Below the pieces are notes generated by a model. It saw nothing but the letters and a program-made list of their open reading frames with translations, had not been told where the DNA came from and searched no databases. A stretch of DNA of 64,000 nt from Parcubacteria group bacterium M10-OD1-1 (GTDB taxonomy: Bacteria > Patescibacteriota > Minisyncoccia > Moranbacterales > UBA2206): positions 73,993 through 137,992 of the forward strand of contig LSNL01000003.1 in NCBI GenBank assembly GCA_003056145.1. The letters run 5' to 3'. Of this stretch, positions 43,138 through 56,026 are shown in pieces (position 1 is the stretch's first letter; each line of letters begins with the position of its first letter). The translations under genes and the position numbers were made by a program.

Positions 43138-44034
43138 ATGACTGAAATGAAGAAGGCTGACATTAAAGTAGGATTTTTATGTAATAATAATTGCTTTTTT
43201 TGTGTCCAGGGACATAAAAAAATTTTTGGTAATAAAACAACTAGAGAAATTAAAGCTTCTATAAAGGAAGCTAGAAAAGATTGTGAAATAGTCGTTTTTA
43301 CTGGAGGAGAGCCAACTATTAGAGAGGATATTTTAGAATTGGTGAGTTTTGCTAAAAATTTAAAATTTAAAATTATTCAAATTCAATCAAATGGTAGAAT
43401 GTTTGCTTATAAAGATTTCTGCCAAAAAATAGTTAACGCTGGAGCTAACGAGTTCGCTTTAGCTTTACATGGACATAAAGCTGATTTACATAATTATTTG
43501 ACCCAACAAAATAGTTTCCTTCAAGTGGTTAAAGGAATTAATAATCTTAAAAAAATGAATCAATCAGTGATAATGAATACTGTGATTGTAAAGTCTAATT
43601 ACAGATATCTTCCAGAAATTACAAAACTTCTTATCGGACTTAATGTGGATCAGATTCAATTTGCTTTTGTCCATGCTCTTGGTGCAGCGAAAGATAATTT
43701 TGACAAAGTAATCCCTAGAATTAGCCTGGTTATTCCTTTCCTTGTAAAATCTTTAAAATTAGGTACTCGTTTTAATAAGAAAATAATGGTGGAGGCTATT
43801 CCCCCTTGTTTTTTAAAAGATTTTCAAGAACATATTTCTGAAAATAGTATGCCAGAAATGAAAATTTTTGATTTGGATAATATTGTAGATAATTTTAAAG
43901 AAGCTAGAATAGTAGAAGGAAAAATGAAAAATACAAAATGTAAAAAATGTACTTTATTTTCAGTGTGTGAAGGTCCATGGAAAGAATATCCAGAAAGATT
44001 TGGTTGGGACGAATTTAAGCCAGTAATAAAATAA
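43138..44034 (+). CDS. Radical SAM protein (CNNNCxFC / GGEPT paralog group), C-terminal Cys cluster
   Basis: FLCNNNCFFCVQG (CxxxCxxC), TGGEPT, C-terminal CKKCTLFSVCEG. Confidence 0.8.
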   Translation: MTEMKKADIKVGFLCNNNCFFCVQGHKKIFGNKTTREIKASIKEARKDCEIVVFTGGEPTIREDILELVSFAKNLKFKIIQIQSNGRMFAYKDFCQKIVNAGANEFALALHGHKADLHNYLTQQNSFLQVVKGINNLKKMNQSVIMNTVIVKSNYRYLPEITKLLIGLNVDQIQFAFVHALGAAKDNFDKVIPRISLVIPFLVKSLKLGTRFNKKIMVEAIPPCFLKDFQEHISENSMPEMKIFDLDNIVDNFKEARIVEGKMKNTKCKKCTLFSVCEGPWKEYPERFGWDEFKPVIK

Positions 44035-44036
44035 AA

Positions 44037-45170
44037 ATGAAAAAGGAGAAGTTAAAATTAAAAGACACTATTGCTAAAGAAAAACGTCATTGGGTGAGAA
44101 TTACTAACTCTTGCAATAATAATTGTCTTTTTTGCTTAGACAAGGAAAATCAAGATGGAACTTTTGTTTCTTTTCAAGAAATTGTAAAAGAGTTTAAGAA
44201 AGGACTATCGCTGGGTGCAAAGCGGGTTATTATTTCTGGGGGAGATCCAACGATTCATCCTGATATTTTTAAAATTATCAAAAAAGCTAATTCAATAGGT
44301 TATAGTCATGTACAGATGATAAGTAATGGGAGAATGTTAGCTTATGGTGATTTTGCAAAAAAACTGAAAGAAGCAGGTTTAGATGAAATTACTATATCAA
44401 TGCATAGCCATATTAAAGAAAAGTTAGAGAAAATGACTCAAATAAAAGGGAGTTATGATCAAGCAATGAGGGGGCTTATAAATGCTTTGAAATATAAATT
44501 TATTGTGAGTGTGGATATTGTTATAAATAAAATAAATTATAAAACATTAGGAGACTCATTGAAATTCTTTATAAAATTAGGTGTTTCTGAATTTGATTTA
44601 TTATATGTAATCCCTTTTGGGAGTGCTTGGAAAAATAGAAAAAAACTTTTTTTTTCACCAGAAAAAGCCAAGGACTATCTAGATAAAGCATTTGAGTTAT
44701 CAGATAATCCAGATTTATTTATTTGGACCAATAGATTACCAGCTATTTTTTTAGAGGGCTACGAACATTTAATTCAAAACCCCATTAAGCTTAAAGATGA
44801 AGTTAATGGAACGCAAAAAGAATTTGAAGCATATATATTTAATAATAAAGAAAGGAATTGCAAAGGAGAGAGATGCAAATATTGTTTTATGAAAGATTTC
44901 TGTAGTGATTTGGAAGCTATTAAAAAAGAAGGCAAGTTAACTTCAAAAACTGAACCTATTTGTATATCAAAAAAAAAGGTAAAAAAATATACATTCAAAC
45001 TGGATAAAAAGTTTGATGTATATAATTTTCTAGATTTTTATATTCAGCATCGATATTTTGTAAAAAGTTTAAGATGTACTAATTGTCGTTATAATAATAA
45101 TTGTTCTGGTGCTCACATTGAAAAAATTAGAAAGGAAGGATTTAAAATTTTAAAACCAATTAAAGAATAA
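44037..45170 (+). CDS. Radical SAM protein (same paralog group), extended Cys-rich C-terminus
   Basis: SCNNNCLFCLD, SGGDPT, C-terminal CKGERCKYCFMKDFC...CTNCRYNNNCSGAH. Confidence 0.8.
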   Translation: MKKEKLKLKDTIAKEKRHWVRITNSCNNNCLFCLDKENQDGTFVSFQEIVKEFKKGLSLGAKRVIISGGDPTIHPDIFKIIKKANSIGYSHVQMISNGRMLAYGDFAKKLKEAGLDEITISMHSHIKEKLEKMTQIKGSYDQAMRGLINALKYKFIVSVDIVINKINYKTLGDSLKFFIKLGVSEFDLLYVIPFGSAWKNRKKLFFSPEKAKDYLDKAFELSDNPDLFIWTNRLPAIFLEGYEHLIQNPIKLKDEVNGTQKEFEAYIFNNKERNCKGERCKYCFMKDFCSDLEAIKKEGKLTSKTEPICISKKKVKKYTFKLDKKFDVYNFLDFYIQHRYFVKSLRCTNCRYNNNCSGAHIEKIRKEGFKILKPIKE

Positions 45171-45274
45171 TTGCGGAATAAGAAATCAATACTAAATTCA
45201 GAGTTAGTTAATTATATAAAGTATGCTAAAAAGTTAAAATACAAAAATATTATTAATTTTCTTGATTATTATAT

Positions 45275-47068
45275 ATGAAAATAAAAAATTGTCATAAGGA
45301 TGAGAAAACATTTAAGTGTGAAAATCCTAAGATTACGCTAAGCAAGCTAGAAAAAGCGTTTGATGAATTAGGATTAGATGTTGAATATACAGGGAGAGTT
45401 TTTTGTAAGGACACTTTATATTCCGGGTCTCTTATAATTCCTTCATTAAATTATATTGTTAATGGAAAGGGTATCTCTTATGAACTTGCTAAGGCTAGTG
45501 CCTATTCAGAAATGGCCGAGAGAATTTCTTGTGGATTTTTTAATTTTTTTCCAGTAAAAAATCAGAGTAAAAAAAACTTAATTGATAAGAAAAAACTATT
45601 TGATTTTTACTACTTTTCTTATCAAAAAGGTTATAGACATGGGCGGCAAAGCTTATTTGAGAATTCTCTAAAGATTGAAAATATATTTAAAAAACAAGGG
45701 TTATCCAAAAAAGAAGTAGAAAAAATAAAAAAAAGTGAAGTGGCTCAGCATTGGGTAAATGGATATTCTCTATCTAGACAGAAAAATATAAAGGTCCCGT
45801 TGAGATTGATTCATCGAATTTCTGGGACCAATGGTTTAGCGTCTGGTAACACACTTGAAGAAGCTATTGTTCATGGAGCTAATGAAGTTTTTGAGAGATT
45901 TATTTTATTTAAAGTCGTAAAGGAAAAAAAGATTTTACCTACGATCAGAATTTCTTCAATAAAAGATGGTTTTATTCTGAAAATAATAAAATACTTTAAG
46001 AAAAATAATATTGATATAATAATCAAGGATTGCTCTTCAGATGGACATATTCCGTGTATAGGAATTTTATTTATTAATAATAATATTAGGAATAGCAAAA
46101 ATTCAGTAGAAAAAAAGACAAAGTATTTAAGGTGGTATACGGAGGTATCGTTTAATTATAAAGAAGCAATTATCAGATGCTTCACCTCATATACGCAAGG
46201 AATATCAAAAGTGACTGATTTAAAAAAATCAAAAAGTATGGAAGTTCTTTGGAAAGAATGGTTCAGTGAGTTTCCTTTAAAGTCTAATGACAATAAAAAA
46301 TACAGCTATTTATCTAAAAAAAATTTTTATGAAGGTGATTTAGGATTTCTTAAAAAAGGTGGAAAAGTTAGTATAAAAAATATCCAGGAAGGTAAAGAGA
46401 CTAACGATTGCGTTGAAGAAATTAATAAAATAAAATCAATTTGTAAATTTTTAGGTACGGAATTAATTGTTATTGACCAGACTCATCCAGTTTTGAATTT
46501 TCCTGCAGTTAGAATTATTATTCCAGGGGTATCTGATGAAATGAATGCTGAGTATAAAGATAAATTTGATATTGAGAGAATAACTTTGCCGATAGAAAAA
46601 TATTGGACAAAAGAATTTTATGATTTTATTATAAGTAGTAAATGGACAAAAACAAATCAAGGAATAAAAAGTTTGATTGTAGAGATAGAAAAATATATAG
46701 TCACTTTTCCTTTTAATTTTGTTATACAAACATCAGGAGTAGGTAACAGAACTATTAATTTATTTGAATTACTTTTGTCGCTCTATATTAAAATAGGAGG
46801 AGATATTAAATTGGTAAACTGTTTAAATGTTTTGTCAGGATTATATCCGGACGAAGAAAAATTATATAAAACTTTACGTACTTTGGCTACTTCTAATAAG
46901 ATAAAAGAAATGAAAGAAGTTTTGAAACAAACAAGAGGTTGTTACCGGTTTATGCTTAGCCAAGGAAATAATAATCCTTTTATTAATTGGTGCGATAAAT
47001 CATGTGAAAATAGGTGTGTTAGAAATTTTGAAATTAATCTTAAAAAACTTCTTAAAAGTTTTTATTAA
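45275..47068 (+). CDS. YcaO-domain protein (E. coli YcaO-like, stand-alone type)
   Basis: NGKGISYELAKASAYSEMAERIS and NGLASGNTLEEAIVHGANEVFERF match the two YcaO ATP-binding signature blocks. The N-terminus aligns with E. coli YcaO. 597 aa. Confidence 0.8.
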   Translation: MKIKNCHKDEKTFKCENPKITLSKLEKAFDELGLDVEYTGRVFCKDTLYSGSLIIPSLNYIVNGKGISYELAKASAYSEMAERISCGFFNFFPVKNQSKKNLIDKKKLFDFYYFSYQKGYRHGRQSLFENSLKIENIFKKQGLSKKEVEKIKKSEVAQHWVNGYSLSRQKNIKVPLRLIHRISGTNGLASGNTLEEAIVHGANEVFERFILFKVVKEKKILPTIRISSIKDGFILKIIKYFKKNNIDIIIKDCSSDGHIPCIGILFINNNIRNSKNSVEKKTKYLRWYTEVSFNYKEAIIRCFTSYTQGISKVTDLKKSKSMEVLWKEWFSEFPLKSNDNKKYSYLSKKNFYEGDLGFLKKGGKVSIKNIQEGKETNDCVEEINKIKSICKFLGTELIVIDQTHPVLNFPAVRIIIPGVSDEMNAEYKDKFDIERITLPIEKYWTKEFYDFIISSKWTKTNQGIKSLIVEIEKYIVTFPFNFVIQTSGVGNRTINLFELLLSLYIKIGGDIKLVNCLNVLSGLYPDEEKLYKTLRTLATSNKIKEMKEVLKQTRGCYRFMLSQGNNNPFINWCDKSCENRCVRNFEINLKKLLKSFY

Positions 47069-47082
47069 AAATAAAAAATAAT

Positions 47083-48018
47083 ATGGCAAAAATAGGATAT
47101 ATCCAAGTAACTCGTACTTGTAATCAAAAATGTATAATTTGTTCTAATCCTCCTAATGAAAAAGTGTTAAGTCTACAAACAGCCAAACTGGAAATAGATA
47201 AATTAAAAAATAATGGTTGCACAGGAGTTATTCTTACAGGAGGAGAACCAACTCTTTATGAGAAATTACCAGAGCTAATTAGATATAGCTTTAAGAAAAA
47301 TATTTTTCCTAGAATTATTACTAATGGGCAAAAAATAGCTAAGCTAAGATATTTAAAAACTCTTCAACGAGCTGGATTAAAACATATACATCTTTCTATT
47401 TTTTCTTATCAAAGTAAAATTCAAGCTAAAATTTCTCAGAATAATCATTCACTTTATAATATAAAAAGGGCTTTAGACAACTTAAACAAAGTAGAAGGCA
47501 TAACCGTTGATGTTAATACGGCTATTAGTAAATATAATGCTAATCATTTATCTAAAACGGTTCAATGGATTGTAAAAAATTATCCTTTTATAAATCATTT
47601 TGTATTTAATAATCTAGATCCTTATATGAATAGAGCCATGAAGAATCCTCAGATAATTCCCACTCTTAATGATTTTGAATTAGAGCTACACAGAGCTTTA
47701 AGTTTTTTAGAAAAAAATAAAAAAACTTTTCGAGTTGAGAAAGTCCCGTTGTGTTATTTGACGGACTATGAGCATGTTTCTACAGAAACTCGAAAAATTG
47801 TTAAGAAAGAGAGCAGAACAGTGTATTTTTTAGATGAGAAGAAGAGAGTAACTCAAAAAAGCTGGTTTTCTAGAAAAACAGATGACTGTCAACAATGTTC
47901 TTTGAAAAATATTTGTTCAGGATTGTATGCTATTGGGGGTTTTTATAAAGAGACAGAATTATATGCTGTCTTTGAAGATCCGAAAAAAATAATTAAAAAA
48001 ATTAGACAAAACCAATGA
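47083..48018 (+). CDS. Radical SAM protein (same paralog group)
   Basis: TRTCNQKCIICSN, TGGEPT, C-terminal CQQCSLKNICSG. Confidence 0.8.
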   Translation: MAKIGYIQVTRTCNQKCIICSNPPNEKVLSLQTAKLEIDKLKNNGCTGVILTGGEPTLYEKLPELIRYSFKKNIFPRIITNGQKIAKLRYLKTLQRAGLKHIHLSIFSYQSKIQAKISQNNHSLYNIKRALDNLNKVEGITVDVNTAISKYNANHLSKTVQWIVKNYPFINHFVFNNLDPYMNRAMKNPQIIPTLNDFELELHRALSFLEKNKKTFRVEKVPLCYLTDYEHVSTETRKIVKKESRTVYFLDEKKRVTQKSWFSRKTDDCQQCSLKNICSGLYAIGGFYKETELYAVFEDPKKIIKKIRQNQ

Positions 48019-48965
48019 TTTTTAATTATTTATTTCTGGGAGTAATTTTATTAGTTAGTTTGGTAATTTGTTGGGAAGACATTCAGCATAAAAAAATTAG
48101 AAACAAATTAATTCTAATTGGTTTGCTCTTAGGCGCTATTTTATTCGGAGGCTCATATTTTTTAGGATGGATTAATAATTATTATTTAAAAGTTGTTTTC
48201 TTTAACACTGTAATTGCGATAGTAGTTAGTTTTTTAATTTGGAAAATGGGATTTTGGCCAGCTGGAGATAGCAAATATTTTATATTGATAGCTTTTCTTT
48301 TACCAATACATTATTATAATAAGTCATACTTGGAATATTTTCCTTCTTTTATCTTATTAGTGAATATATTTATTTTATTCGTAGGAATTATTTTAGTTAA
48401 AGTAATATATTTTAACTCAAGAAGTTTTATAATCTTTTCAGCCAAAACAAACAGAGGAGAGCTTAAGCAAAAATTTTTTCAAGTAGTGAATACTCTTATA
48501 GTCAATATGCAAAATGTAAGTAACTGGAAAAAATGGGGGAAGGGGATGCTATTAGGGGGAATGATGTATTTTATTCTAAGTTTTTTTATTTATAAACGGA
48601 GTATTGATTTAGTGCCTTTCTTTATATATTCAACGGCCTTTGGCTTATTTGATGTTATTTTTAATTTTTACAATCAATCATTTGCTAAAAAATCTATAGA
48701 CATTATTAATTTACAGCCAAAAATGAATTTAGCTGATGAGTTTCCAAGCGATTTAAAAAAAGATAAAGAAAGAATAGAGAAAATTGGGAAATTAAGGCCA
48801 GACGGATTAGATAAACAACAGGTAAGAGTTATTAAAGAATACTATATCAGTAAAGACTTGAAGCAGATTTATATTTATAAAACAATTCCTTTTTCAATCT
48901 GGATATTTATTGGTACGGTAATAACAATAATTTTTCAAAGAAATATTATCCAGATTATTTTATAA
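48015..48965 (+). CDS. Polytopic membrane protein with an N-terminal A24-like (prepilin-peptidase/TadV-type) aspartic peptidase signature
   Basis: WEDIQHK... (first Asp) and WPAGDSKYFILIAF (GxGD-type second Asp) about 65 aa apart, then about 190 aa of extra TM region. Confidence 0.4.
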   Translation: MIFNYLFLGVILLVSLVICWEDIQHKKIRNKLILIGLLLGAILFGGSYFLGWINNYYLKVVFFNTVIAIVVSFLIWKMGFWPAGDSKYFILIAFLLPIHYYNKSYLEYFPSFILLVNIFILFVGIILVKVIYFNSRSFIIFSAKTNRGELKQKFFQVVNTLIVNMQNVSNWKKWGKGMLLGGMMYFILSFFIYKRSIDLVPFFIYSTAFGLFDVIFNFYNQSFAKKSIDIINLQPKMNLADEFPSDLKKDKERIEKIGKLRPDGLDKQQVRVIKEYYISKDLKQIYIYKTIPFSIWIFIGTVITIIFQRNIIQIIL

Positions 48966-48980
48966 TATTTTCAAAAAAAG

Positions 48981-50576
48981 ATGAAATATTTTCAAGATTT
49001 TTTTTGGTTTAAAATGGGAATAGCTATTTTAACATCCTTTTTATACTTCTTTTCTTTTCCTGGCAATTTTAATGCGGGTTTGTTGTCATTTATCGCGTTA
49101 ATACCTTTCTTTTGGTCAATTACAAAAATTAAAAAATATTGGCAAGGAGCATTGTTGTCTTTCGTAGTTTTTTTTCTAGCTTTTTTATTAATTACTAATT
49201 GTTTCATAAAAATTAATATTATAATCTGGATAGTTGTAAGCTTAATATATTCTTTAATATATTATATCCCCTTAGGTTTAGCATTAGTTTATTTTAACAG
49301 AAAATATCAGGCTTATAATATTATAAATTATCCAGCTGTGTTCATTCTAATAGAATGGTCTAGGAGTTTTGGTATATTAGCTTTGCCCTTTGGAAATATT
49401 TCTAGTTCACTTTATCGGTACCCTTACCTCATTCAAATAGCTGCATTTCTCGGTGAATATTCGGTAAGTTTCTTGATTGTTATAGTCAATGTATCTTTAA
49501 TGGTAGTATTAAAATTTCTGCTAACACATAAAAAATTACTTAAAATAGAAAAAATTTTATTAACATTAGCTATAAGTATATTCATTCTTAATTTATTTAT
49601 TGGTATTTTTGAAATTAAGAAAAATCATCCTGAAATTGAAAGGAAAAGTATTAATGTGCTAGTCATAAATCCAAAAATAAAAAGTGATATTGGATCTGGT
49701 ATGAATAAAAAAGAGCTCGCAGATTATTCAGATGCACGTCTTAACTCAGTTATTAAATTGACCAATGATGCTATGAATAAGATTAGTTCTAATGTTGACT
49801 TAGTTATTTGGGGAGAGGCGACTATTATGAATGATGTTTTTTGGAAATATAAAAATGAGGGAGTTAACTATTATCCATCAAATAATGCAATAAAACTTAA
49901 ACAGTTTATTGCTCGGAAAGGGGTACCAGTTTTGCTAGGGGGCTATGTGTTCGAACTTAAACATGGTAAGATGATTTTTTTAAACAGCTCGGTACTTATA
50001 AATTCTAGCGGAGTGATTAAGCAGACTTACGAGAAAAATAAACTTATTATTTTTGGGGAGTATATTCCTAGTTATTTAAGATTTTTAATTCCTTATGCTA
50101 AGAAAATGGATCTTAAATCTAGACTGATATCTAAGAGTAGAACTGTCTTTAATATTGATGGTTTTAAGATAGTAACTCCCATATGTTTTGAAAATGGTTT
50201 TAACTCTTATCTGCGGGATTTATTGCGATCTGGAGATGTGGATTTAATCGCTAATATATCTGATGATAGTGTTTTTCGTAGCCAGTTTGAAGCTAGACAG
50301 CATTTTGCTGCTAATGTTTTCAGAGCAATAGAAAATCGAACAAATGTAGTGGAAGTTTCTAATTTTGGTATTAATGGAAAAATATCTAAGTATGGAATTA
50401 TCAGTAAAGACACTTCTTCTCAAGAAGGATATCTCTTGATAAATTTTAAAAAAAAAGAAGGAAAAATATTTACAACATTCTCAAAGTATGGTAATCTAAT
50501 AGTAGGAATTATAATTGTTAGTTATGTAATAGTTTTATTGATGATGTTTATTAACTTTTTTATTTCTAATAAATAA
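48981..50576 (+). CDS. Apolipoprotein N-acyltransferase-like protein (N-terminal polytopic domain plus C-terminal CN-hydrolase domain)
   Basis: VIWGEAT (Glu), PICFEN (catalytic Cys) in nitrilase-superfamily spacing. Six to eight N-terminal TM helices. Confidence 0.6.
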   Translation: MKYFQDFFWFKMGIAILTSFLYFFSFPGNFNAGLLSFIALIPFFWSITKIKKYWQGALLSFVVFFLAFLLITNCFIKINIIIWIVVSLIYSLIYYIPLGLALVYFNRKYQAYNIINYPAVFILIEWSRSFGILALPFGNISSSLYRYPYLIQIAAFLGEYSVSFLIVIVNVSLMVVLKFLLTHKKLLKIEKILLTLAISIFILNLFIGIFEIKKNHPEIERKSINVLVINPKIKSDIGSGMNKKELADYSDARLNSVIKLTNDAMNKISSNVDLVIWGEATIMNDVFWKYKNEGVNYYPSNNAIKLKQFIARKGVPVLLGGYVFELKHGKMIFLNSSVLINSSGVIKQTYEKNKLIIFGEYIPSYLRFLIPYAKKMDLKSRLISKSRTVFNIDGFKIVTPICFENGFNSYLRDLLRSGDVDLIANISDDSVFRSQFEARQHFAANVFRAIENRTNVVEVSNFGINGKISKYGIISKDTSSQEGYLLINFKKKEGKIFTTFSKYGNLIVGIIIVSYVIVLLMMFINFFISNK

Positions 50577-50598: not shown

Positions 50599-51279
50599 AT
50601 GAATAAATTTATTCCTAGGGCAGTCATTTATTTAGGTTTATTTTGTCTGTTAATTGGGATTAGTTTTTTCCCTAATGTTGCGTTGGGTATTGGACCACCA
50701 CCACCACCACCACCAGTAACTCATACTGATAGATTTGTATGTGCTCCTGACGGTCAGACACCTGTTGTTATATTAAAATCATACGAAAGTGGGGTTGATT
50801 ATAATTTGTCGGTATGTGCTCCGGGTCCATTTTTAAATGCTACTGCATGTTACAATCAAGATGACCATGTGTATACTTGTGCGCTATCTTCATCAGATTA
50901 TGATAGCCAAGACAATGAATGCAAATCGGTTGATTTTGATTATACTCCTGTCGTAGCTTCAAGTTGCTCTGGAATCGATAAGTTTACTTGTAATGCTGGA
51001 TATACATATAGTAGCGGTACCTGTTGGTCAGCTTGGACCCCTTTGGCTAGTACAGTATGCTTGGGAGTTTCTTTTACTCAAACAAGAACGGATGGTTACG
51101 GAGATATACAAACACAAACTGCCGTTGGTACTAAAACTAGTTCAATTTGGACACCACCTGAAGATACCGTTTGCAATGGACGTATTTTTCAACAGGTAGG
51201 TGACTGCGGGGACCTAAAAGTAACAAAATCAGTAGGTACTAGAAGTTGTGGCTGGAGAGAAGTGAATCCATCTTTCTAA
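50599..51279 (+). CDS. Secreted Cys/Ser/Thr-rich protein with a polyproline linker
   Basis: Signal peptide, PPPPPPP, then 16 Cys in a region that is locally GC-richer. Confidence 0.5.
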   Translation: MNKFIPRAVIYLGLFCLLIGISFFPNVALGIGPPPPPPPVTHTDRFVCAPDGQTPVVILKSYESGVDYNLSVCAPGPFLNATACYNQDDHVYTCALSSSDYDSQDNECKSVDFDYTPVVASSCSGIDKFTCNAGYTYSSGTCWSAWTPLASTVCLGVSFTQTRTDGYGDIQTQTAVGTKTSSIWTPPEDTVCNGRIFQQVGDCGDLKVTKSVGTRSCGWREVNPSF

Positions 51280-51358: not shown

Positions 51359-51862
51359 ATGAAAAATCATCAAAGTATCAAAACTAAAAAAAATCTTAAA
51401 AAAAATGAAATTAGCTTTTTATTGAAGACTGATATTTATCCAAAATATATTATCTATAAAGCTTGTTATACTTTTATTGATCGGGTGTATATTTATTTGG
51501 ATAAACATACTAAAGAAGATATAAAAGTTACTTTAAAGGGTAAAAATAAATTAAAAGATAAGGATATAGATTCATTAAAAGGATTATTCCTTAACGAATT
51601 ATTAAATGTAATTTTAAGAGAAAATATTACCAAAAGGAATAAAAAGATATTAGAGTATATTGTTGGTGGAGCTATTAATGCTTCTTTGGAAAATAATAAA
51701 TTAGTAGAGTTGGAGAATAAAAGTAAAGACCAGCTAGATAAGAAAGAATCAGAAGAAGATATTAATGTTGAAAAAGAGATAGCAATTTTAAAAAAAGAAT
51801 TGGAGAAAATGGAAGAAGAAGATTTTGAAAATGATTCTCTTGGAATTAAAGAAGTCTGTTAG
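51359..51862 (+). CDS. Hypothetical Lys-rich protein with a coiled-coil C-terminus
   Basis: ORF only. Confidence 0.35.
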   Translation: MKNHQSIKTKKNLKKNEISFLLKTDIYPKYIIYKACYTFIDRVYIYLDKHTKEDIKVTLKGKNKLKDKDIDSLKGLFLNELLNVILRENITKRNKKILEYIVGGAINASLENNKLVELENKSKDQLDKKESEEDINVEKEIAILKKELEKMEEEDFENDSLGIKEVC

Positions 51863-51888: not shown

Positions 51889-52119
51889 ATGAAAAAAAGA
51901 TTAACGAAAAAAATGAAATTTAGTTGCAGTTTATATAGCCAGCAAAGCGTTGAAAAGACCATTGATAATTTTAGAGATGGTAACCAAGATATTGAATTTA
52001 AATTTAAGAGAATTAAAGGATATGTAGAAATAGTAATTAATTATTCAAATTCAAAATTAGTTAACGAAGAATTTATAAATGAATTTTCTAATTATTTATT
52101 ATTTCTTAATATTAAATAA
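51889..52119 (+). CDS. Small hypothetical protein (76 aa) immediately upstream of an rSAM/SPASM gene
   Basis: ORF abutting the 52122 start by 2 nt. Candidate partner or precursor. Confidence 0.3.
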   Translation: MKKRLTKKMKFSCSLYSQQSVEKTIDNFRDGNQDIEFKFKRIKGYVEIVINYSNSKLVNEEFINEFSNYLLFLNIK

Positions 52120-52121
52120 AA

Positions 52122-53600
52122 ATGAAAACTAAAAATAAAGAGATGAAAGTTTCTAAGATAGGTAATTTTAGATTCAAAGAATTTAAAAATAAAGTTCTTA
52201 TTACAAATGATGGAGGAGATTGGATGTGGCTTAGCTCAGATAATTTTAGTAAGTTATCAACAGGAGAAATTAAAAAAGATAATCGGATATATCAAGAACT
52301 AGTCAAGAAAAATTTTGTAGATGTTGATAAAAAAAAAGTAATAAAGTTGGCCAGAAAATATTTGCGATTAAATCAAACAGTTTTTCAAGGTACTTCTTTA
52401 TTTATTATCGTTTTAACGTTGCGATGTAATCACCGTTGTCTTTATTGTCAGGCTATACCAGAACATCCTAGCAAAAAAGGGTTTGATATGGATAAGGAGC
52501 AAGCAAGAAAAGTAGTAGATTTAATTTTTTGTACGCCTTCTCATTATGTTAATATTGAATTTCAAGGAGGAGAACCTCTTTTGAATTGGGAAATCTTAAA
52601 ATATATAACTAAATATGCTAAAAAAGTTAATAAAGAAAAGAAAAAGGATTTAGGAATTAGTTTAGTGTCTAATCTAACTTTATTAAACGATGAAAAATTA
52701 AAGTATTTATTAGACAACAATATAAGTATTAGTTGTTCTTTTGATGGACCTTCATATGTTCATAATAAAAATAGGCTTTATTTAGAGGATAATAATGGTC
52801 ATAAGGCAGTTGTAGCTAAAATAATCAAAGTTCAAAAAGCGATTAAAGCTAAGAAGAAAATAAATAAAAATAAATTCGTTGATCAACTTAATGCCGTTTT
52901 AACCGTTAGTCGTTTCGCACTTCCTTATCCTAAAAAAATTGTTGATGAGTATTTAAAAAGAGGATTTGGAAATATTTTTATTAGACCCTTAAGTCCTTTC
53001 GGGTTAGAAAGGAAAACTTTAGATATAATCGGTTATAAGGCGGAAGATTTTATCAAGTTCTATATAAAGATGATGGACTATATTCTAAAAATTAATTTAG
53101 AAAAAAAAATGTTCATAGAGAGGACTACTTTCTATGCTTTGAAGAAAATTATACAACAAGAAGATCCTGGATATTATGAAATGAGATCTCCCTGTGGAGC
53201 TGGTATTGGACAGATGGCGTTTGATTATGATGGTAGGATATTCACTTGTGATGAAGGAAGAATGGCAGCTAGAATGGGTTATGATAATTTTATGCTAGGT
53301 GATGTTAATGAAAATGATAATAGGGAAGGTTATAATAAATTGATTGATAATGAAGTTACTAAAACTATGTGTCTAGCTTCATCATTAGATAATTATACTG
53401 AATGTCAAAATTGTCCGTACAAACCATATTGTGGAACTTGTCCTCTAGCAAATTTTATTGAATTCGGAACAATTATGCCTCAAATTTCTAATACTGATCG
53501 TTGTAAAATAAATAAGGCGATGTTTGATTATATCTTTTTAAAAATGAAAAATGAAAAATACCGAGCTATTTTTAACAGTTGGTTGGAAAATTCAAAGTAG
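52122..53600 (+). CDS. Radical SAM/SPASM peptide-modifying enzyme with an about 90-aa N-terminal extension
   Basis: LRCNHRCLYCQ, QGGEPLL, C-terminal CGAGIGQ...CDEG...CQNCPYKPYCGTCP (SPASM auxiliary-cluster Cys). Confidence 0.85.
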   Translation: MKTKNKEMKVSKIGNFRFKEFKNKVLITNDGGDWMWLSSDNFSKLSTGEIKKDNRIYQELVKKNFVDVDKKKVIKLARKYLRLNQTVFQGTSLFIIVLTLRCNHRCLYCQAIPEHPSKKGFDMDKEQARKVVDLIFCTPSHYVNIEFQGGEPLLNWEILKYITKYAKKVNKEKKKDLGISLVSNLTLLNDEKLKYLLDNNISISCSFDGPSYVHNKNRLYLEDNNGHKAVVAKIIKVQKAIKAKKKINKNKFVDQLNAVLTVSRFALPYPKKIVDEYLKRGFGNIFIRPLSPFGLERKTLDIIGYKAEDFIKFYIKMMDYILKINLEKKMFIERTTFYALKKIIQQEDPGYYEMRSPCGAGIGQMAFDYDGRIFTCDEGRMAARMGYDNFMLGDVNENDNREGYNKLIDNEVTKTMCLASSLDNYTECQNCPYKPYCGTCPLANFIEFGTIMPQISNTDRCKINKAMFDYIFLKMKNEKYRAIFNSWLENSK

Positions 53601-53603: not shown

Positions 53604-54764
53604 ATGAAATCAAAAAGTCAAATCAGTAGAAAGAATGATATACCTGAAAGCCTAAATTTATTTTTTACTGACAGATGTAATTTGGACTGTCAATATTGTT
53701 TTGTTAATAAAAATGGACATAAAGAAAATACTTTAGAGGAAGATTCTTTAAAGAAAAGTGTTGATTTGTTATTGGAATATCCTCAAGCAGAGAAAATGAT
53801 TAGTTTCAGTGGAGGGGAACCAATATTAGAATTTTCATTATTAAAGAATATTTGTGACTATGCTAAAAAAAAAGCGTTGCAAAAAAGAAAAAAGTTGCAT
53901 ATGTTTGTTGCTACTAATGGGACACTTCTAAATCAAAAGATAGTAGATTATTTTTCGAAAAATAATATTGCTATTAAAATTAGTCTTGATGGTAGTAAGG
54001 AAACCCATGATAAAAACCGTTCCTTTAAAAATCAATCTCATCTGTCTAGTTTTAAGCAAATAATGGACAATTTAGCTAGTATTGATACTAGTCGATTAAA
54101 TGTTTCAATTTCTATGGTTTTTACTCCCGAAACAATAGATAATCTTTTAGATAATATTAAATTTTTAAATAAAAAATCATTTACTGCTATTAATTTTTAT
54201 CCAGATTTATATGCAAATTGGAAAAAAAATGACTTAATTAAATTTAAACAAACATTTAATAAATTCGCAATTTATTATGTCAATCTCTTTGACCAAAATA
54301 AAGTAAATAATATTTTTAAAAATTATTTTTTGGATTCTATCTTTAACAAAGTGAATAGCAATAAGATGAGTAATTGTGATAAACTAAACTTAAGTTCGTC
54401 AGGTCAATTTTATGTTTGTGATAAAGTTCTTTCTATTAAGGACGTTAAACGAAAAAATTATATCATTGGAAATGTTAAACAAGGTGTTAATAATCAGAAA
54501 AGGATAGAATCTTTAAGAAAAATCAGGGATGATTTTTTGAAAACTAGTAAGCTGAATTGTGAGAAGTGTCAGTATTATGAATATTGTTTCTGTCCAATAG
54601 GACATTATATTTATTTCTCGAATAGTATAGAGAAAAATAAAAATGATTATTGGAAAAATTTTTGTTTTATATCCCGAAACTATAGTAAGATTTTTCTAGC
54701 TATAAATAAATCATTAGAAGATAACAAAAAATATATCAAAATATATAAACAAAATAAGTTGTAG
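53604..54764 (+). CDS. Radical SAM/SPASM peptide-modifying enzyme
   Basis: TDRCNLDCQYCF, SGGEPIL, C-terminal CEKCQYYEYCFCPIGH. Confidence 0.85.
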   Translation: MKSKSQISRKNDIPESLNLFFTDRCNLDCQYCFVNKNGHKENTLEEDSLKKSVDLLLEYPQAEKMISFSGGEPILEFSLLKNICDYAKKKALQKRKKLHMFVATNGTLLNQKIVDYFSKNNIAIKISLDGSKETHDKNRSFKNQSHLSSFKQIMDNLASIDTSRLNVSISMVFTPETIDNLLDNIKFLNKKSFTAINFYPDLYANWKKNDLIKFKQTFNKFAIYYVNLFDQNKVNNIFKNYFLDSIFNKVNSNKMSNCDKLNLSSSGQFYVCDKVLSIKDVKRKNYIIGNVKQGVNNQKRIESLRKIRDDFLKTSKLNCEKCQYYEYCFCPIGHYIYFSNSIEKNKNDYWKNFCFISRNYSKIFLAINKSLEDNKKYIKIYKQNKL

Positions 54765-54799: not shown

Positions 54800-55090
54800 T
54801 TGTTATATAATCCTATGAAAAGAATAAATAATAAGTTTCCAAAAATAAAAAAAGAATTAAAGACTTTTTTATTAAGCGAAGAGGGAAAAATTGTTGAGAA
54901 AGATGCTATTAAATTAGGAATCGCATTAATTGCAGTCGCTGGAATTTTAAGCGGAGTAATGAAAATTAAGGATGTTCACGCAGGAACTTGTGCTCACGTA
55001 TCTCATGGTTCTCATGGTTCTCATGGTTCTCATGGCTCTCATGGCTCTCATGGCTCTCATGGTTCTCATTCTCAAGGTGGTTGGTGTTAA
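54800..55090 (+). CDS. His-Xaa-Ser repeat peptide, a candidate RiPP precursor: leader with a hydrophobic helix plus CAHV-(SHG)7-SHSQGGWC
   Basis: Seven perfect SHG triplets flanked by Cys at the extreme C-terminus. Located between two rSAM/SPASM pairs. Confidence 0.7.
   Translation: MLYNPMKRINNKFPKIKKELKTFLLSEEGKIVEKDAIKLGIALIAVAGILSGVMKIKDVHAGTCAHVSHGSHGSHGSHGSHGSHGSHGSHSQGGWC
55001..55069. repeat. 9-bp tandem repeat (tctcatggy x7) encoding (SHG)7
   Basis: Read from the sequence. The third position of Gly alternates t/c. Confidence 0.85.
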
Positions 55091-55120: not shown

Positions 55121-56026
55121 ATGAAAAGAAAAATAATTATTGGAGCAATTGTCATTTTATTGCTAGTGATTTTAAGTGCATTGGGACTATTTTTTCTTCG
55201 AGACAATAATCAGACAAGTAATTCTATAAATAATCCTAAAGAACAAACAAGCAATAATATTAAAGCAGGTAACCAAATAAATAATAGTATTAATTTTAAT
55301 AACCAAAAAAACAATAATATCAAAACAGGAAAAATTTTTAAAAGGAGTAACTTACAAGATTGTCAACAAAATTTATTAAAGGATAATTATACTCAGAATG
55401 ATTTTAGTTTAGAATATTATTATGTAGTCAAATCATTTTTAAACAAGAATCAAAAATTTTGTAAATTACTCAGAAATAAAGATTCGGTAGATAATTGTAA
55501 TAATATATATAGTTTGTATGTATCCTTAGCTAATAATAACTGCCAAAGCATTAAAAATAATAAAACTGCTTATTCGTTTTGTTTAGCAAATTCAAAGCAC
55601 AATATTAATCTCTGTCCAACAGAAAATAAAGATTCTCAGCAGATTTGTCAAGCAATTACGAAAGGAGATGAAACAATGTGTCAAGGGCTAAAAGATACAA
55701 AGACTGATCACACTTTAAATCGATGTCGGAATGAAGTTTATTTAGCTAAGGCAGTTGAAAATAAAAATGTTTCTTTATGTCAAAAAATTAAAGCAATCAA
55801 TCCACAGGGATCTGCCGAAAAGTTTATTTGCGATGTTTTCACTGGAGATAGTCAATCTAGTTTAACGAAGGCGCTCAATTCTTTTAAAGAAAATATTTGT
55901 TACGAGCGATACGGAAATGTTACTGCTAAAGAAAAAAATAATAAATCTATTTGTGAAAAAATTCCTTGGAAAAGTGACTTTAGTAAGATAGGATATCAAG
56001 AATGTATTAATCAGTTTAATCAGTAA
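55121..56026 (+). CDS. Membrane-anchored Asn-rich protein with 14 periodically spaced Cys
   Basis: N-terminal TM, then repeated x(10-20)-C-(Q/x) units. Confidence 0.5.
   Translation: MKRKIIIGAIVILLLVILSALGLFFLRDNNQTSNSINNPKEQTSNNIKAGNQINNSINFNNQKNNNIKTGKIFKRSNLQDCQQNLLKDNYTQNDFSLEYYYVVKSFLNKNQKFCKLLRNKDSVDNCNNIYSLYVSLANNNCQSIKNNKTAYSFCLANSKHNINLCPTENKDSQQICQAITKGDETMCQGLKDTKTDHTLNRCRNEVYLAKAVENKNVSLCQKIKAINPQGSAEKFICDVFTGDSQSSLTKALNSFKENICYERYGNVTAKEKNNKSICEKIPWKSDFSKIGYQECINQFNQ

What the first reader, a model, noticed from the sequence alone, without database searches (positions are those of the whole stretch)
43138..48018. Three tandem CNNNCxFC/GGEPT-type radical-SAM paralogs interrupted by an E. 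coli-type YcaO
43138, 44037 and 47083 (plus the 240-aa 59953 at the far end) form a second, distinct rSAM family. They share an N-terminal CNNNC(L/F)FC motif, G-G-(E/D)-P-T, and varied C-terminal Cys clusters; 44037 has eight or more extra Cys.

The embedded YcaO aligns along its whole N-terminus with stand-alone E. coli YcaO (the type implicated in RimO-dependent S12 methylthiolation) rather than azoline-forming TOMM cyclodehydratases. However, no RimO-like methylthiotransferase (MTTase N-domain plus TRAM) is present. A YcaO co-clustered with non-MTTase rSAMs suggests ATP-dependent backbone activation (for example thioamide or amidine formation) coupled to radical chemistry on the same substrate.
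Basis: partly seen in the sequence, partly recalled or inferred. Interest (0 to 1): 0.65.

Follow-up and report, generated by a model that had tools for sequence, protein, structure and literature searches.

The report
YcaO inside a Patescibacterial His-Xaa-Ser cluster
The three radical-SAM genes are HxsC-like paralogs of an enlarged His-Xaa-Ser peptide-maturation cluster of a candidate-phyla-radiation bacterium. The YcaO between them is a rare add-on enzyme with the E. coli YcaO architecture, and it probably modifies the backbone of the same His-Ser-Gly repeat peptide.

Summary
The ORFs and their paralogy are real. The four small rSAMs (43138, 44037, 47083, 59953) form one family (BLASTP E 9e-33 to 2e-12). 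Their best curated matches are HxsC/HxsC4 of the His-Xaa-Ser (HXS) system, all below the cut-offs.

They sit in a ~17.5-kb co-oriented cluster with HxsB and HxsD (both pass cut-offs). It also holds an HxsA3-type precursor with eight HxS repeats, three PapB-like SPASM rSAMs, an A24-like peptidase, a Dph6-like ATPase and an unannotated ABBA-fold prenyltransferase.

The block rC1-rC2-rC3-A24 is conserved and uninterrupted in other loci. Only in this lineage does the YcaO sit inside it.

The YcaO has E. coli YcaO architecture (Foldseek E 1e-19 over full length; hhalign E 1e-27) and keeps its ATP/Mg motifs. It is not an ortholog (83 vs 700 bits; pI 9.45 vs 4.4), and it lacks PxPxP, TfuA and E1-like partners.

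Its closest relatives (43-54% identity) lie in HXS-type clusters in at least four lineages, at different positions. None of 80 HxsB-anchored metagenome loci carries a YcaO, so it is a rare accessory.

TfuA-independent thioamidation of HxsA3 is the most likely chemistry. This is inferred, not shown. Verdict: a new variant of a known kind.

The parts
43138..44034 (+). rC1: HxsC-like radical SAM (298 aa; CNNNCFFC, GGEPT; auxiliary Cys set C224 + C268xxC271x5C277)
   Evidence: Pfam Radical_SAM 75 bits. Best NCBIfam hits are HxsC4 at 162.7 bits (cut-off 500) and HxsC at 104 bits (cut-off 268). Orthologs at 55-65% identity in L090, L092, L094 and L173.
44037..45170 (+). rC2: HxsC-like radical SAM (377 aa; CNNNCLFC, GGDPT; eight extra Cys, enough for two auxiliary clusters)
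   Evidence: NCBIfam: archaeal MoaA 105, HxsC4 102, HxsC 100 bits, all below their cut-offs. Cys positions. Orthologs at 55-63% identity in L092, L094, L172 and L173.
45275..47068 (+). YcaO (597 aa): E. coli-type architecture with an N-terminal segment, a YcaO ATP-grasp-like domain and a C-terminal helical domain that carries an NPFxxWCDxxCxxxC motif
   Evidence: Pfam YcaO 150 bits. AF2 model pLDDT 87.6. Foldseek best hit EcYcaO, E 1e-19, full length. hhalign E 1.4e-27. Invariant E79, E82, R83, E195, E196, E204, E207, R208 in the 20-member family alignment. No PxPxP motif.
47083..48018 (+). rC3: HxsC-like radical SAM (311 aa; CNQKCIIC, GGEPT; C224 + CxxCx5C)
   Evidence: Best NCBIfam hit is HxsC at 93.8 bits, covering model positions 29-290 of 292. 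Orthologs at 53-63% identity in L092, L094, L103 and L173, and 91% in L087.
48015..48965 (+). A24 (prepilin-peptidase-like) polytopic membrane protein; overlaps rC3 by 4 nt
   Evidence: Pfam Peptidase_A24 33.4 bits, above the 26.5 cut-off. WEDIQHKKIRN and AGDSKYF read directly from the sequence; that these are the two catalytic-Asp motifs of A24 peptidases is my recollection, not a tool result. It follows rC3 in L092, L094 and L173, and lies among the rC genes in about 12 other loci.
48981..50576 (+). Apolipoprotein N-acyltransferase (Lnt); membership of the system is uncertain
   Evidence: NCBIfam TIGR00546 216.5 bits, above the 132.9 cut-off. Co-oriented. Conserved here only in the near-identical L087; a weak Lnt-like hit lies upstream of HxsD in L092.
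50599..51279 (+). Cys-rich protein (226 aa) with an N-terminal hydrophobic segment and a poly-Pro linker; membership uncertain
   Evidence: No family hit. Found only in L087.
51359..51862 (+). HxsD
   Evidence: TIGR03976 58.7 bits, above the cut-off of 50.
51889..52119 (+). HxsD-like small protein (76 aa)
   Evidence: NF038315 34.4 bits, below the cut-off of 41. A gene of about 70 aa occupies the same position in L001, L002, L173 and L178.
52122..53600 (+). HxsB: radical SAM/SPASM maturase
   Evidence: TIGR03978 479.1 bits, above the cut-off of 370, covering model positions 3-466 of 466.
53604..54764 (+). SPASM1: PapB-like rSAM/SPASM enzyme in the position that HxsC holds in canonical systems
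   Evidence: NF047865 181.8 bits (cut-off 340) and HxsB 135.7 bits.
54800..55090 (+). HxsA3-type precursor (96 aa): basic leader with FLLSEEGK, a hydrophobic helix, and the core CAHV(SHG)8SHSQGGWC
   Evidence: NF038309 61 bits (cut-off 65). Eight HxS repeats. About 45 homologous precursors next to HxsB in metagenome loci.
55121..56026 (+). p301: Cys/Asn-rich protein with an N-terminal hydrophobic segment, function unknown
   Evidence: No family hit. Weak homologs in the same position in L002, L090 and L173.
56037..56954 (+). p305: unannotated protein with an ABBA (PT-barrel) prenyltransferase fold
   Evidence: AF2 pLDDT 94.1. Foldseek hits MpnD, 6-DMATS, PagF, CymD, KgpF, LimF and others, E 8e-7 to 2e-3, TM up to 0.67. 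No Pfam or NCBIfam hit reaching a curated cut-off (one sub-threshold Pfam hit, PF25729, E 0.003).
56955..58046 (+). SPASM2: PapB-like rSAM/SPASM enzyme
   Evidence: NF047865 150.6 bits.
58128..59237 (+). SPASM3: PapB/HxsB-like rSAM enzyme
   Evidence: NF047865 100.3 bits.
59240..59941 (+). Dph6-like PP-loop ATP pyrophosphatase (diphthine-ammonia-ligase family)
   Evidence: Pfam PF01902 142.6 bits. TIGR03679 125.7 bits, below the cut-off of 197. Conserved in L002, L173 and L178.
59953..60675 (+). rC4: short HxsC-like radical SAM (240 aa; CNQRCLFC, GGEPT; no auxiliary Cys)
   Evidence: Best NCBIfam hit is HxsC at 89.8 bits. The ortholog (45% identity) directly precedes rC1 in L173.

Best explanation
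Identity of the genes. Region 43138-48018 is one end of a ~17.5-kb, 18-gene, single-strand cluster (43138-60675). The cluster is an enlarged Patescibacteria-type version of the His-Xaa-Ser (HXS) peptide-maturation system. The three tandem rSAMs and the fourth copy at 59953 are ancient HxsC-like paralogs. rC1-rC2-rC3 plus an A24-like membrane peptidase form a module that is conserved as a block in related clusters.

Inferred pathway. HxsB, HxsD, three further SPASM enzymes, an ABBA-fold prenyltransferase and a Dph6-like ATPase are presumed to act with this module on the 96-aa HxsA3 precursor. That precursor has a basic leader, a hydrophobic helix and a Cys-flanked (Ser-His-Gly)8 core ending GGWC.

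The YcaO. It is a catalytically competent enzyme with E. coli YcaO architecture, from an otherwise mostly stand-alone clade. A subset of these clusters recruited it, and in this lineage it has moved in between rC2 and rC3.

Shown: gene identities, paralogy, the conserved module, the YcaO fold and ligand motifs, and recurrent YcaO-cluster linkage at different positions.

Inferred: the YcaO uses ATP to activate a backbone amide of HxsA3. Most probably it installs thioamide(s) without TfuA, as the two best-matching solved relatives are reported to do (EcYcaO on uL16; the M. jannaschii enzyme on McrA). This would work alongside the radical chemistry of the rSAMs. The biological role of the product (phage-DNA gatekeeping as in E. 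coli HXS, metal binding, or something else) is unknown.
For: Cluster identity.
- HxsB scores 479 bits against a cut-off of 370, HxsD 58.7 against 50, and HxsA3 61 against 65 with eight HxS repeats.
- HxsC or HxsC4 is the best or co-best curated match for all four small rSAMs.
- The four are mutually similar at E 9e-33 to 2e-12 and distinct from the SPASM class.
- Intergenic gaps range from -4 to 104 nt.

Conserved module. rC1-rC2-rC3-A24 is contiguous in L092 and L173; L094 keeps the same order with a ~1-kb unassigned gap after rC1. rC1-rC2-rC3 is contiguous in L103 and L178.

Whole-cluster orthology. L173 (Ca. Parcubacteria, GCA_018902835.1) has orthologs of 15 cluster genes at 26-62% identity. 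These include the YcaO at 53%.

YcaO competence and type.
- Invariant ATP/Mg motif residues.
- AF2 model with pLDDT 87.6.
- EcYcaO is the best fold match over the full length.
- The family profile ranks EcYcaO (118 bits) and MjYcaO (112 bits) above MusD, TruD and LynD (90-78 bits).
- NCBIfam gives 85 bits for McrA-thioamidation and 83 for YcaO_for_S12, against 59 for TOMM.
- No PxPxP motif.

Linkage.
- The closest YcaO relatives (43-54% identity to each other) sit in or beside HXS-type genes in the window, L001, L002/L171/L173 and L172. Their immediate neighbours differ in each lineage.
- L087 is 86% nt-identical to the window and begins with the last 16 nt of the YcaO ORF.
- In P0057 a related YcaO domain is fused to a SPASM-class rSAM.
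- P0007's YcaO lies among four B12-rSAMs.

Literature. HXS maturation by HxsB/C/D is described in PMC13128918. EcYcaO as a TfuA-independent thioamidase, with non-acidic relatives found in RiPP clusters, is described in PMC13063428.
Against: - No chemistry was observed. The substrate and the reaction of the YcaO are inferred only from neighbourhood and nearest relatives, which share just 15-23% identity.
- None of 80 HxsB-anchored metagenome loci (788 kb) carries a YcaO. L178/L179 have p305, Dph6 and the rC triad but show no YcaO in 21 kb. The system therefore works without it.
- More distant members of the same YcaO clade (41% identity or less) are solitary or in unrelated contexts.
- HxsA3 peptides of loci with and without a YcaO show no distinguishing feature.
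- None of the rC proteins reaches the HxsC cut-off.
- The gene order is D-D'-B-SPASM-A, not the canonical D-B-C-A.
- EcYcaO recognises a folded protein, not a linear peptide (PMC13063428).
Confidence: 0.62

Rival explanations
1. The YcaO is a housekeeping protein-backbone thioamidase, acting on a ribosomal or other cellular protein as EcYcaO does on uL16. It merely lies next to the HXS-type cluster.
For: - It has E. coli-type full-length architecture.
- EcYcaO modifies a folded ribosomal protein and has no precursor gene nearby (PMC13063428).
- Most members of this YcaO clade are solitary, in unrelated contexts.
- None of 80 HXS-type loci has a YcaO.
Against: - In at least four diverged lineages the closest relatives are inside or abutting HXS-type clusters, in different positions. 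That pattern is not expected from inherited chance synteny.
- The gap is 14 nt to rC3 here and 11 nt to rC2 in L172.
- NF040716 scores 83 bits against a cut-off of 700.
- The pI is 9.45 against the acidic 4.4 that marks uL16 thioamidases. This is weakened by the fact that all cluster proteins here are basic.
- Non-acidic EcYcaO-like enzymes were reported to sit in RiPP clusters (PMC13063428).
Confidence: 0.13
2. The YcaO is a cyclodehydratase. It converts Ser (or the flanking Cys) of the (Ser-His-Gly)n core into oxazolines or thiazolines.
For: - The core is extremely Ser-rich, with Cys on both sides.
- Azoline formation is the commonest YcaO chemistry in RiPP clusters (my own knowledge).
- ATP/Mg residues are intact.
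Against: - No PxPxP motif in any of the 20 family members. The motif is associated with azoline-forming YcaOs (PMC12338566).
- TIGR03604 scores 59 bits against a cut-off of 219.
- No E1-like/Ocin-ThiF partner and no FMN dehydrogenase among the cluster ORFs.
- LynD, TruD and McbD rank below EcYcaO and MjYcaO in both profile and fold searches.
Confidence: 0.15
3. The YcaO is a non-catalytic or chaperone-like accessory factor. It helps an rSAM act on its substrate, as the first reader's 'RimO-partner' analogy suggests.
For: - It lies next to rC2 in two lineages, the window and L172.
- An rSAM-YcaO fusion exists.
- The historical annotation of EcYcaO is 'S12 methylthiotransferase accessory factor'.
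Against: - The RimO-accessory role of EcYcaO rested on a minor effect (99% to 84% modification) and is superseded by direct uL16 thioamidation (PMC13063428).
- Every ATP/Mg ligand motif is invariant across the family. That argues for catalysis.
Confidence: 0.05
4. The small rSAMs are MoaA-like or viperin-like small-molecule enzymes, not peptide maturases. Their resemblance to HxsC is superficial.
For: - rC2's top NCBIfam hit is archaeal MoaA at 105 bits.
- PADLOC gives pVip hits of 39-71 bits.
- All HxsC scores are far below the cut-off.
Against: - The MoaA and pVip scores are also far below any threshold and cover only the generic rSAM core.
- HxsC or HxsC4 is the best hit for rC1, rC3 and rC4, and rC3 aligns to the end of the HxsC model.
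- The genes co-occur with HxsB, HxsD and HxsA3 in dozens of loci.
- HxsC binds HxsD in the characterised system (PMC13128918), and two HxsD-type genes are present here.
Confidence: 0.05

Closest known systems
His-Xaa-Ser (HXS) system: HxsA/B/C/D (TIGR03976-03979). Haft & Basu 2011 is cited from my own knowledge and via PMC9062424. It was shown to be an anti-phage system in E. coli in PMC13128918.
   Same: - An HxsB equivalog and HxsD are present above their cut-offs.
- There is a precursor with tandem His-Xaa-Ser repeats.
- Non-SPASM rSAMs whose best family match is HxsC are present.
- HxsD-type small proteins are available as HxsC partners.
   Different: - There are four HxsC-like paralogs, all below the HxsC cut-off.
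- A SPASM enzyme occupies the canonical HxsC position.
- The precursor is a 96-aa HxsA3-type peptide with a hydrophobic helix, not a ~214-aa protein with a peptidoglycan-binding domain.
- Extra enzymes are present: three PapB-like SPASM rSAMs, a YcaO, an ABBA prenyltransferase, a Dph6-like ATPase and an A24-like peptidase.
- The host is probably Patescibacteria rather than Pseudomonadota. Homologs are labelled Patescibacteria, Berkelbacteria and Parcubacteria.
- An anti-phage role is untested here.
E. coli YcaO (PDB 4Q84-86): TfuA-independent thioamidase of ribosomal protein uL16 Met82 (PMC13063428)
   Same: - It has the same full-length architecture, with a co-linear N-terminus, YcaO domain and C-terminal helical domain.
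- ATP/Mg motifs are conserved.
- No TfuA or E1-like partner gene lies nearby.
   Different: - Identity is only 15-23%.
- NF040716 scores 83 bits against a cut-off of 700.
- The pI is 9.45 against 4.4.
- It is embedded in a RiPP-like cluster.
- It has a C-terminal WCDxxCxxxC motif that E. coli YcaO lacks in the aligned region.
Archaeal McrA-glycine thioamidation YcaO (M. jannaschii MJ1094, PDB 6PE3/6PEU; TIGR03266)
   Same: It is the second-best profile and fold match (112 bits; Foldseek E 8e-15). It is also the top NCBIfam hit by a hair (85 bits).
   Different: It is far below the cut-off (85 against 365 bits). The archaeal enzymes are about 380-400 aa and lack the C-terminal domain. Their substrate is a folded enzyme subunit.
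RiPP clusters that combine YcaO and radical SAM enzymes (bottromycin, thiopeptides; my own knowledge)
   Same: ATP-dependent backbone chemistry and radical SAM chemistry act on one ribosomal peptide.
   Different: Those YcaOs are azoline- or amidine-forming types, and their rSAMs are B12-dependent methyltransferases or NosL/NosN types. None involves HxsB/HxsC-type enzymes or an E. coli-architecture YcaO.
ABBA peptide prenyltransferases (PagF, KgpF, LimF)
   Same: p305 has the PT-barrel fold and sits in a RiPP-like cluster whose core peptide is rich in His and has a Trp.
   Different: There is no detectable sequence-family membership (no Pfam hit). The substrate and the prenyl donor are unknown.

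Membership tests
His-Xaa-Ser (HXS) system | HxsB equivalog (TIGR03978, cut-off 370 bits) | tested here: met
   The 52122-53600 product scores 479.1 bits over the full-length model.
His-Xaa-Ser (HXS) system | HxsD (TIGR03976, cut-off 50 bits) | tested here: met
   The 51359-51862 product scores 58.7 bits. A second HxsD-like gene scores 34.4 bits against a cut-off of 41.
His-Xaa-Ser (HXS) system | Precursor with tandem His-Xaa-Ser repeats (HxsA family models) | tested here: inconclusive
   The 54800-55090 product has eight HxS repeats. However, NF038309 (HxsA3) scores 61 bits against a cut-off of 65, and NF038313 (HxsA4) 49 against 55. The repeats are met; the curated cut-off is narrowly missed.
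His-Xaa-Ser (HXS) system | HxsC equivalog (TIGR03977, cut-off 267.9 bits; or HxsC4 NF038332, cut-off 500) | tested here: not met
   rC1 scores 104/163, rC2 100/102, rC3 94/61 and rC4 90/72 bits (HxsC/HxsC4). This is the best family resemblance for each, but none is a member by the curated threshold.
His-Xaa-Ser (HXS) system | Four-gene organisation HxsD-HxsB-HxsC-HxsA (99.6% of described systems; PMC13128918) | tested here: not met
   The order here is rC1-rC2-YcaO-rC3-A24-...-HxsD-HxsD'-HxsB-SPASM1-HxsA3-...-rC4.
His-Xaa-Ser (HXS) system | Anti-phage activity by blocking DNA entry | not testable with these tools
   Shown only for the E. coli system (PMC13128918). PADLOC 2.0 has no HXS model, and only generic pVip hits were returned.
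E. coli-type YcaO (uL16 thioamidase; NF040716) | Equivalog score of at least 700 bits | tested here: not met
   83.4 bits, covering residues 21-270.
E. coli-type YcaO (uL16 thioamidase; NF040716) | Full-length architecture: YcaO domain plus C-terminal helical domain | tested here: met
   Foldseek against 4Q84-86 gives E 1e-19, TM 0.61-0.64 over about 650 columns. hhalign gives E 1.4e-27, residues 13-544 against 8-517.
E. coli-type YcaO (uL16 thioamidase; NF040716) | Strongly acidic pI, complementary to basic uL16 (PMC13063428) | tested here: not met
   The pI is 9.45 against 4.38 for EcYcaO. Caveat: all cluster proteins are basic, with pI 8.3-9.9 except the acidic Cys-rich 226-aa protein (4.6).
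YcaO superfamily (catalytically active) | Conserved ATP/Mg2+-binding acidic and basic residues | tested here: met
   E79, E82, R83, E195, E196, E204, E207 and R208 are invariant in the 20-sequence family alignment. They align with the E. coli GEYFERLS and EARVQGLSEVFER segments.
Azoline-forming TOMM YcaO (TIGR03604) | Model cut-off of 219 bits, the PxPxP motif, and an E1-like/Ocin-ThiF partner | tested here: not met
   59.2 bits. No PxPxP in any of the 20 family members. No E1/ThiF-like Pfam hit among the cluster ORFs.
TfuA-associated / McrA-type thioamide YcaO (TIGR03266) | Model cut-off of 365 bits and an adjacent TfuA | tested here: not met
   85.1 bits. No TfuA Pfam hit in any cluster ORF, nor in the precomputed Pfam hits of L001, L002 and L173. 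The rest of the genome was not testable.
RimO/MiaB methylthiotransferases | UPF0004 N-domain, rSAM core and TRAM domain | tested here: not met
   The rSAMs show only Radical_SAM/Fer4_12 domains. No CX3CX2C protein occurs elsewhere in the window.

The most novel reading that the evidence does not exclude
Some Patescibacteria may run a hyper-elaborate HXS-type pathway with eight radical SAM enzymes, an E. coli-architecture YcaO, a cryptic ABBA prenyltransferase, a Dph6-like amidating ATPase and a prepilin-peptidase-like protease. The product would be a membrane-associated, cross-linked, prenylated and thioamidated (Ser-His-Gly)n peptide. The YcaO would then be the first E. coli-type, TfuA-independent thioamidase shown to act on a RiPP together with HxsC-type radical chemistry. 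The product could be the CPR counterpart of the E. coli HxsA phage-DNA gatekeeper, or a metal-binding surface peptide.
Probability: 0.25. Interest if true: 0.7.

Novelty: new variant of a known kind. Interest (0 to 1): 0.5.

Why it matters
HXS systems were only recently shown to be an anti-phage defence in E. coli. The chemistry installed by HxsB/HxsC (a +8 Da change) is still undefined (PMC13128918). That survey found 99.7% of systems in Pseudomonadota.

The locus here, and about 80 related metagenomic loci, show a large and much more elaborate HXS-type family. Its labelled homologs are from candidate-phyla-radiation (Patescibacteria) bacteria. It has short hydrophobic-helix precursors and arrays of HxsC paralogs.

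A subset adds an E. coli-architecture YcaO. This offers a natural with/without comparison for testing what this orphan YcaO clade does. It could also extend the newly assigned TfuA-independent thioamidation chemistry from ribosomal protein uL16 to ribosomal peptides.

The cluster further reveals an unannotated prenyltransferase-fold family.

Tried and rejected
- Promoter and terminator scan of 42900-52200: the counts equal those of shuffled sequence, so it says nothing about operon structure.
- Rfam scan of the window: only three tRNAs.
- PADLOC: only generic viperin-like rSAM hits and nothing for the YcaO, HxsD or HxsA3.
- Single-sequence PDB search: it could not discriminate YcaO clades, with all hits near 40 bits. 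Profile and fold searches were needed.
- GTDB genome scan with the YcaO profile. The best 80 loci were Desulfobacterota, Thermoplasmatales, Verrucomicrobiota and methanogen stand-alone YcaOs, and none carried HXS genes. This scan therefore under-samples the relevant lineage.
- L034 is labelled Patescibacteria, but it is GC-rich and carries the P0007-type YcaO. It is not an HXS context.
- pI as a discriminator is weakened because nearly all cluster proteins are basic.
- I looked for peptide features specific to loci with a YcaO (GGWC end, flanking Cys). The same features occur in loci without one.
- I tested whether p305 or p301 are homologous to the unknown proteins downstream of the YcaO in L001. 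There is no significant similarity.
- p305/Dph6/SPASM3 are not strictly coupled to the YcaO, because L178 has them without a visible YcaO.
- A literature search for YcaO + Patescibacteria + radical SAM returned nothing. The YcaO/SPASM search was unproductive.
Curated-model scores, profile-versus-PDB ranking and fold ranking served as proxies.

Full report
**What is at the coordinates**

The window is AT-rich (about 29% GC). All genes from 43138 to 60675 lie on the + strand, with intergenic gaps of -4 to 104 nt.

- The products of 43138, 44037, 47083 and 59953 (rC1 to rC4 in this report) hit Pfam Radical_SAM.
- They are mutually similar (BLASTP E 9e-33 to 2e-12, 24-30% identity).
- They are barely related to the five SPASM-type rSAMs of the same cluster.
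- GG(E/D)PT is present in all four.
- CNNNC(L/F)FC occurs only in rC1 and rC2. rC3 has CNQKCIIC and rC4 has CNQRCLFC.
- rC2 has exactly eight additional Cys.
- rC1 and rC3 each have C224 plus CxxCx5C. rC4 has none.

**What the rSAMs are**

Against NCBIfam, HxsC (TIGR03977) or HxsC4 (NF038332) of the His-Xaa-Ser system is the best match for rC1, rC3 and rC4 and a co-best match for rC2. The scores are 90-163 bits, well below the curated cut-offs of 268 and 500.

The neighbourhood settles the context.

| Product | Assignment | Score vs cut-off |
|---|---|---|
| 52122 | HxsB | 479 vs 370 |
| 51359 | HxsD | 58.7 vs 50 |
| 51889 | HxsD-like | 34 vs 41 |
| 54800 | HxsA3-type precursor, 96 aa | 61 vs 65 |

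The precursor ends CAHV(SHG)8SHSQGGWC. The cluster also holds:

- three PapB-like SPASM rSAMs (53604, 56955, 58128);
- an A24 prepilin-peptidase-like membrane protein (48015);
- Lnt (48981);
- a Dph6-like PP-loop ATPase (59240).

The HXS system was defined in silico; Haft & Basu are cited via PMC9062424. It was recently shown to be an anti-phage system in E. coli. There HxsB, HxsC and HxsD mature HxsA, HxsC binds HxsD, and a +8 Da modification lies in an SHRSS motif. In that survey 99.7% of systems were in Pseudomonadota, with gene order D-B-C-A (PMC13128918).

The locus here is a much-enlarged variant, probably from outside Pseudomonadota. Homologs are labelled Patescibacteria, Berkelbacteria and Parcubacteria.

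**The rC block is a conserved module**

I anchored a metagenome scan on HxsB, which gave 80 loci totalling 788 kb. I then mapped all cluster proteins onto them. Arrays of HxsC-like paralogs and an A24-like gene are common.

- rC1-rC2-rC3-A24 is contiguous, with orthologs at 57-65% identity, in L092. L094 has the same order, but with a ~1-kb unassigned gap between rC1 and rC2.
- The triad is also contiguous in L103, L173 and L178.
- In L092 the DNA just upstream of rC3 aligns to window position 47063, and rC2 aligns up to 44911. The YcaO gene therefore occupies an otherwise uninterrupted junction.
- About 45 HxsA3-type precursors were recovered. They share a leader (PxIKKxLKxFLxSEEGK), a hydrophobic helix and (SH[GAS])n cores ending GGWC, SY or SW.

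**The YcaO**

*Family scores.* Pfam YcaO scores 150 bits. No curated subfamily claims the protein.

| NCBIfam model | Score vs cut-off |
|---|---|
| McrA-thioamidation | 85 vs 365 |
| YcaO_for_S12 | 83 vs 700 |
| TOMM SagD | 59 vs 219 |

*Relatives.* A database search found about 56 relatives with E < 1e-59. They fall into a ~600-aa class and a ~436-aa class.

*Catalytic residues.* In a 20-member alignment the ATP/Mg motif residues E79, E82, R83, E195, E196, E204, E207 and R208 are invariant. The closest ten or so members share a C-terminal NPFxxWCDxxCxxxC motif. None has the PxPxP motif associated with azoline-forming YcaOs (PMC12338566).

*Fold.* The AF2 model is confident (pLDDT 87.6, pTM 0.90).

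- Foldseek ranks E. coli YcaO first over the full length (E 1e-19, TM 0.61-0.64).
- It is followed by M. jannaschii YcaO (YcaO domain only), then LynD, MusD, M. kandleri YcaO, TruD and McbD.
- The family profile gives EcYcaO 118 bits, MjYcaO 112, MusD 90, TruD 87 and LynD 78.
- hhalign against EcYcaO is co-linear from residue 13 to residue 544 (E 1.4e-27).

*Updated premise.* EcYcaO is now assigned as the TfuA-independent thioamidase of ribosomal protein uL16 Met82. Its hallmark is an acidic pI of 4.4. Non-acidic members of its group were noted to lie in RiPP clusters (PMC13063428). The window YcaO has pI 9.45, although all cluster proteins are basic. It is not an EcYcaO ortholog.

**Is the YcaO really part of the system?**

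*For linkage.* The closest relatives are all associated with HXS-type genes, in different arrangements.

| Locus | Arrangement |
|---|---|
| L001 (YcaO 49% identical) | YcaO between two SPASM rSAMs, just downstream of an HxsA3-like gene |
| L002 / L171 / L173 (53-54%) | U32-MTase-YcaO-UbiA-HxsD-HxsD'-HxsB-SPASM1-HxsA3-p301-p305-SPASM2-SPASM3-Dph6-rC4-rC1-rC2-rC3-A24 |
| L172, Ca. Berkelbacteria (51%) | YcaO 11 nt upstream of an rC2 ortholog (63% identity) |
| L087 (86% nt identity to the window) | starts with the last 16 nt of the YcaO ORF |

In the second lineage 15 window genes have orthologs, and the YcaO sits at the opposite end of the cluster from the rC triad.

A more distant relative (31% identity) is fused to a SPASM-class rSAM, next to Cys-rich repeat peptides. 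Another lies among four B12-rSAMs.

*Against a core role.*

- None of the 80 HxsB-anchored loci has any YcaO, even with a profile HMM at E <= 10. The positive controls were found.
- L178/L179 have p305, SPASM3, Dph6 and the rC triad but show no YcaO in 21 kb.
- Relatives at 41% identity or less are solitary or in unrelated contexts.

I conclude that the YcaO is a genuine but rare accessory of one cluster subtype, and that it has been relocated within the cluster during evolution.

**Mechanism**

*Shown:* the enzyme retains its catalytic residues and the E. coli-type fold. It lacks the azoline hallmark and has no E1-like or TfuA partner among the cluster ORFs.

*Inferred:* it activates a backbone amide of HxsA3 with ATP. 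The two best-matching solved relatives (EcYcaO and the M. jannaschii enzyme) are reported to form thioamides (PMC13063428 for EcYcaO and for methanogenic YcaOs in general). TfuA-independent thioamidation is therefore the best single guess, at roughly 0.4. Ser/Cys cyclodehydration and a housekeeping protein substrate are the main alternatives.

The rC enzymes presumably carry out HxsC-type radical chemistry, possibly as complexes with the two HxsD proteins. The A24-like peptidase (both catalytic-Asp motifs appear to be present) is a candidate for leader removal at the membrane. These steps are inference.

**An extra finding in the same cluster**

p305 (56037-56954) has no Pfam or NCBIfam hit that reaches a curated cut-off. 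Its family of about 26 hypothetical proteins gives a very confident model (pLDDT 94.1) with an ABBA/PT-barrel fold. Matches include MpnD, DMATS, CymD and the RiPP prenyltransferases PagF, KgpF, PirF and LimF. In the L173 lineage a UbiA-type membrane prenyltransferase follows the YcaO. Prenylation of the His/Trp-containing core is therefore likely to be part of the pathway.

**Verdict**

- The locus is a new variant of a known kind: an HXS-type cluster of the HxsA3 class with an accessory E. coli-architecture YcaO.
- It is moderately interesting, mainly as a testable entry point into both HXS chemistry and the function of an orphan YcaO clade.

Noticed in passing
window 56037-56954: A 305-aa protein with no Pfam or NCBIfam hit that reaches a curated cut-off is predicted with very high confidence (pLDDT 94.1) to have an ABBA/PT-barrel prenyltransferase fold. 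Matches include MpnD, DMATS, PagF, KgpF and LimF. Its family of about 26 members is entirely 'hypothetical', with labels such as Ca. Parcubacteria.
   Followed up: yes
window 54800-55090; about 45 homologs in L001, L002 and L089-L163: HxsA3-type precursors form a large family. They share the leader PxIKKxLKxFLxSEEGK, a hydrophobic helix and 4 to 29 Ser-His-(Gly/Ala/Ser) repeats, ending GGWC, SY or SW. Some loci (L001, L118, L121) carry two or three precursor genes.
   Followed up: partly
window 48015-48965: An A24 prepilin-peptidase-like membrane protein overlaps rC3 by 4 nt and contains WEDIQHKKIRN and AGDSKYF, which resemble the two catalytic-Asp motifs of A24 peptidases (my recollection of the motifs). 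It recurs next to HxsC-like genes in about 15 loci. It could be the leader peptidase for the prepilin-like HxsA3.
   Followed up: partly
window 59240-59941: A Dph6-like (diphthine-ammonia ligase family) PP-loop ATPase is conserved in the cluster in L002, L173 and L178. This suggests an ATP-dependent amidation step.
   Followed up: no
L168 3194-5266 (also L169): A 690-aa fusion joins a SPASM-class radical SAM domain to a YcaO domain that is 31% identical to the window YcaO. It is flanked by another SPASM rSAM and by two Cys-rich small proteins, one with many closely spaced C-x-C-(N/V)-(G/A)-R-(T/S)-type repeats. PhoH and a 190-aa ORF that looked tail-fibre-like to me by eye (no family hit) lie nearby, so the context may be a phage or mobile element.
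   Followed up: partly
L004 1041-15846: A YcaO 39% identical to the window's lies among four B12-binding radical SAM enzymes, two methyltransferases and a GT2. A 40-aa ORF sits upstream. This may be another RiPP-like cluster.
   Followed up: no
window 46973-47023 (YcaO residues 567-583): The C-terminal motif NPFxxWCDxxCxxxC, with three Cys, is conserved in the closest ten or so family members and lost in more distant ones. It may be a metal site. The motif region itself lies outside the hhalign alignment with E. coli YcaO.
   Followed up: no
window 50599-51279 and 48981-50576: Inside the cluster, between the A24-like gene and HxsD, lie a full-length Lnt and a 226-aa Cys-rich protein with an N-terminal hydrophobic segment and a poly-Pro linker. 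They are conserved only in the near-identical L087. Their relation to the system is unclear.
   Followed up: no
L173 1-5260 (also L002, L171): In the Parcubacteria ortholog cluster the YcaO is preceded by a U32 peptidase and a 458-aa methyltransferase, and is followed by a 506-aa UbiA-family membrane prenyltransferase. None of these is present in the window.
   Followed up: partly
L034: This contig is labelled 'Patescibacteria group bacterium' but looks GC-rich, judging by its dense overlapping ORFs on both strands. Its YcaO N-terminus is identical to that of P0007 (the B12-rSAM context). It may be a mis-binned contig.
   Followed up: no
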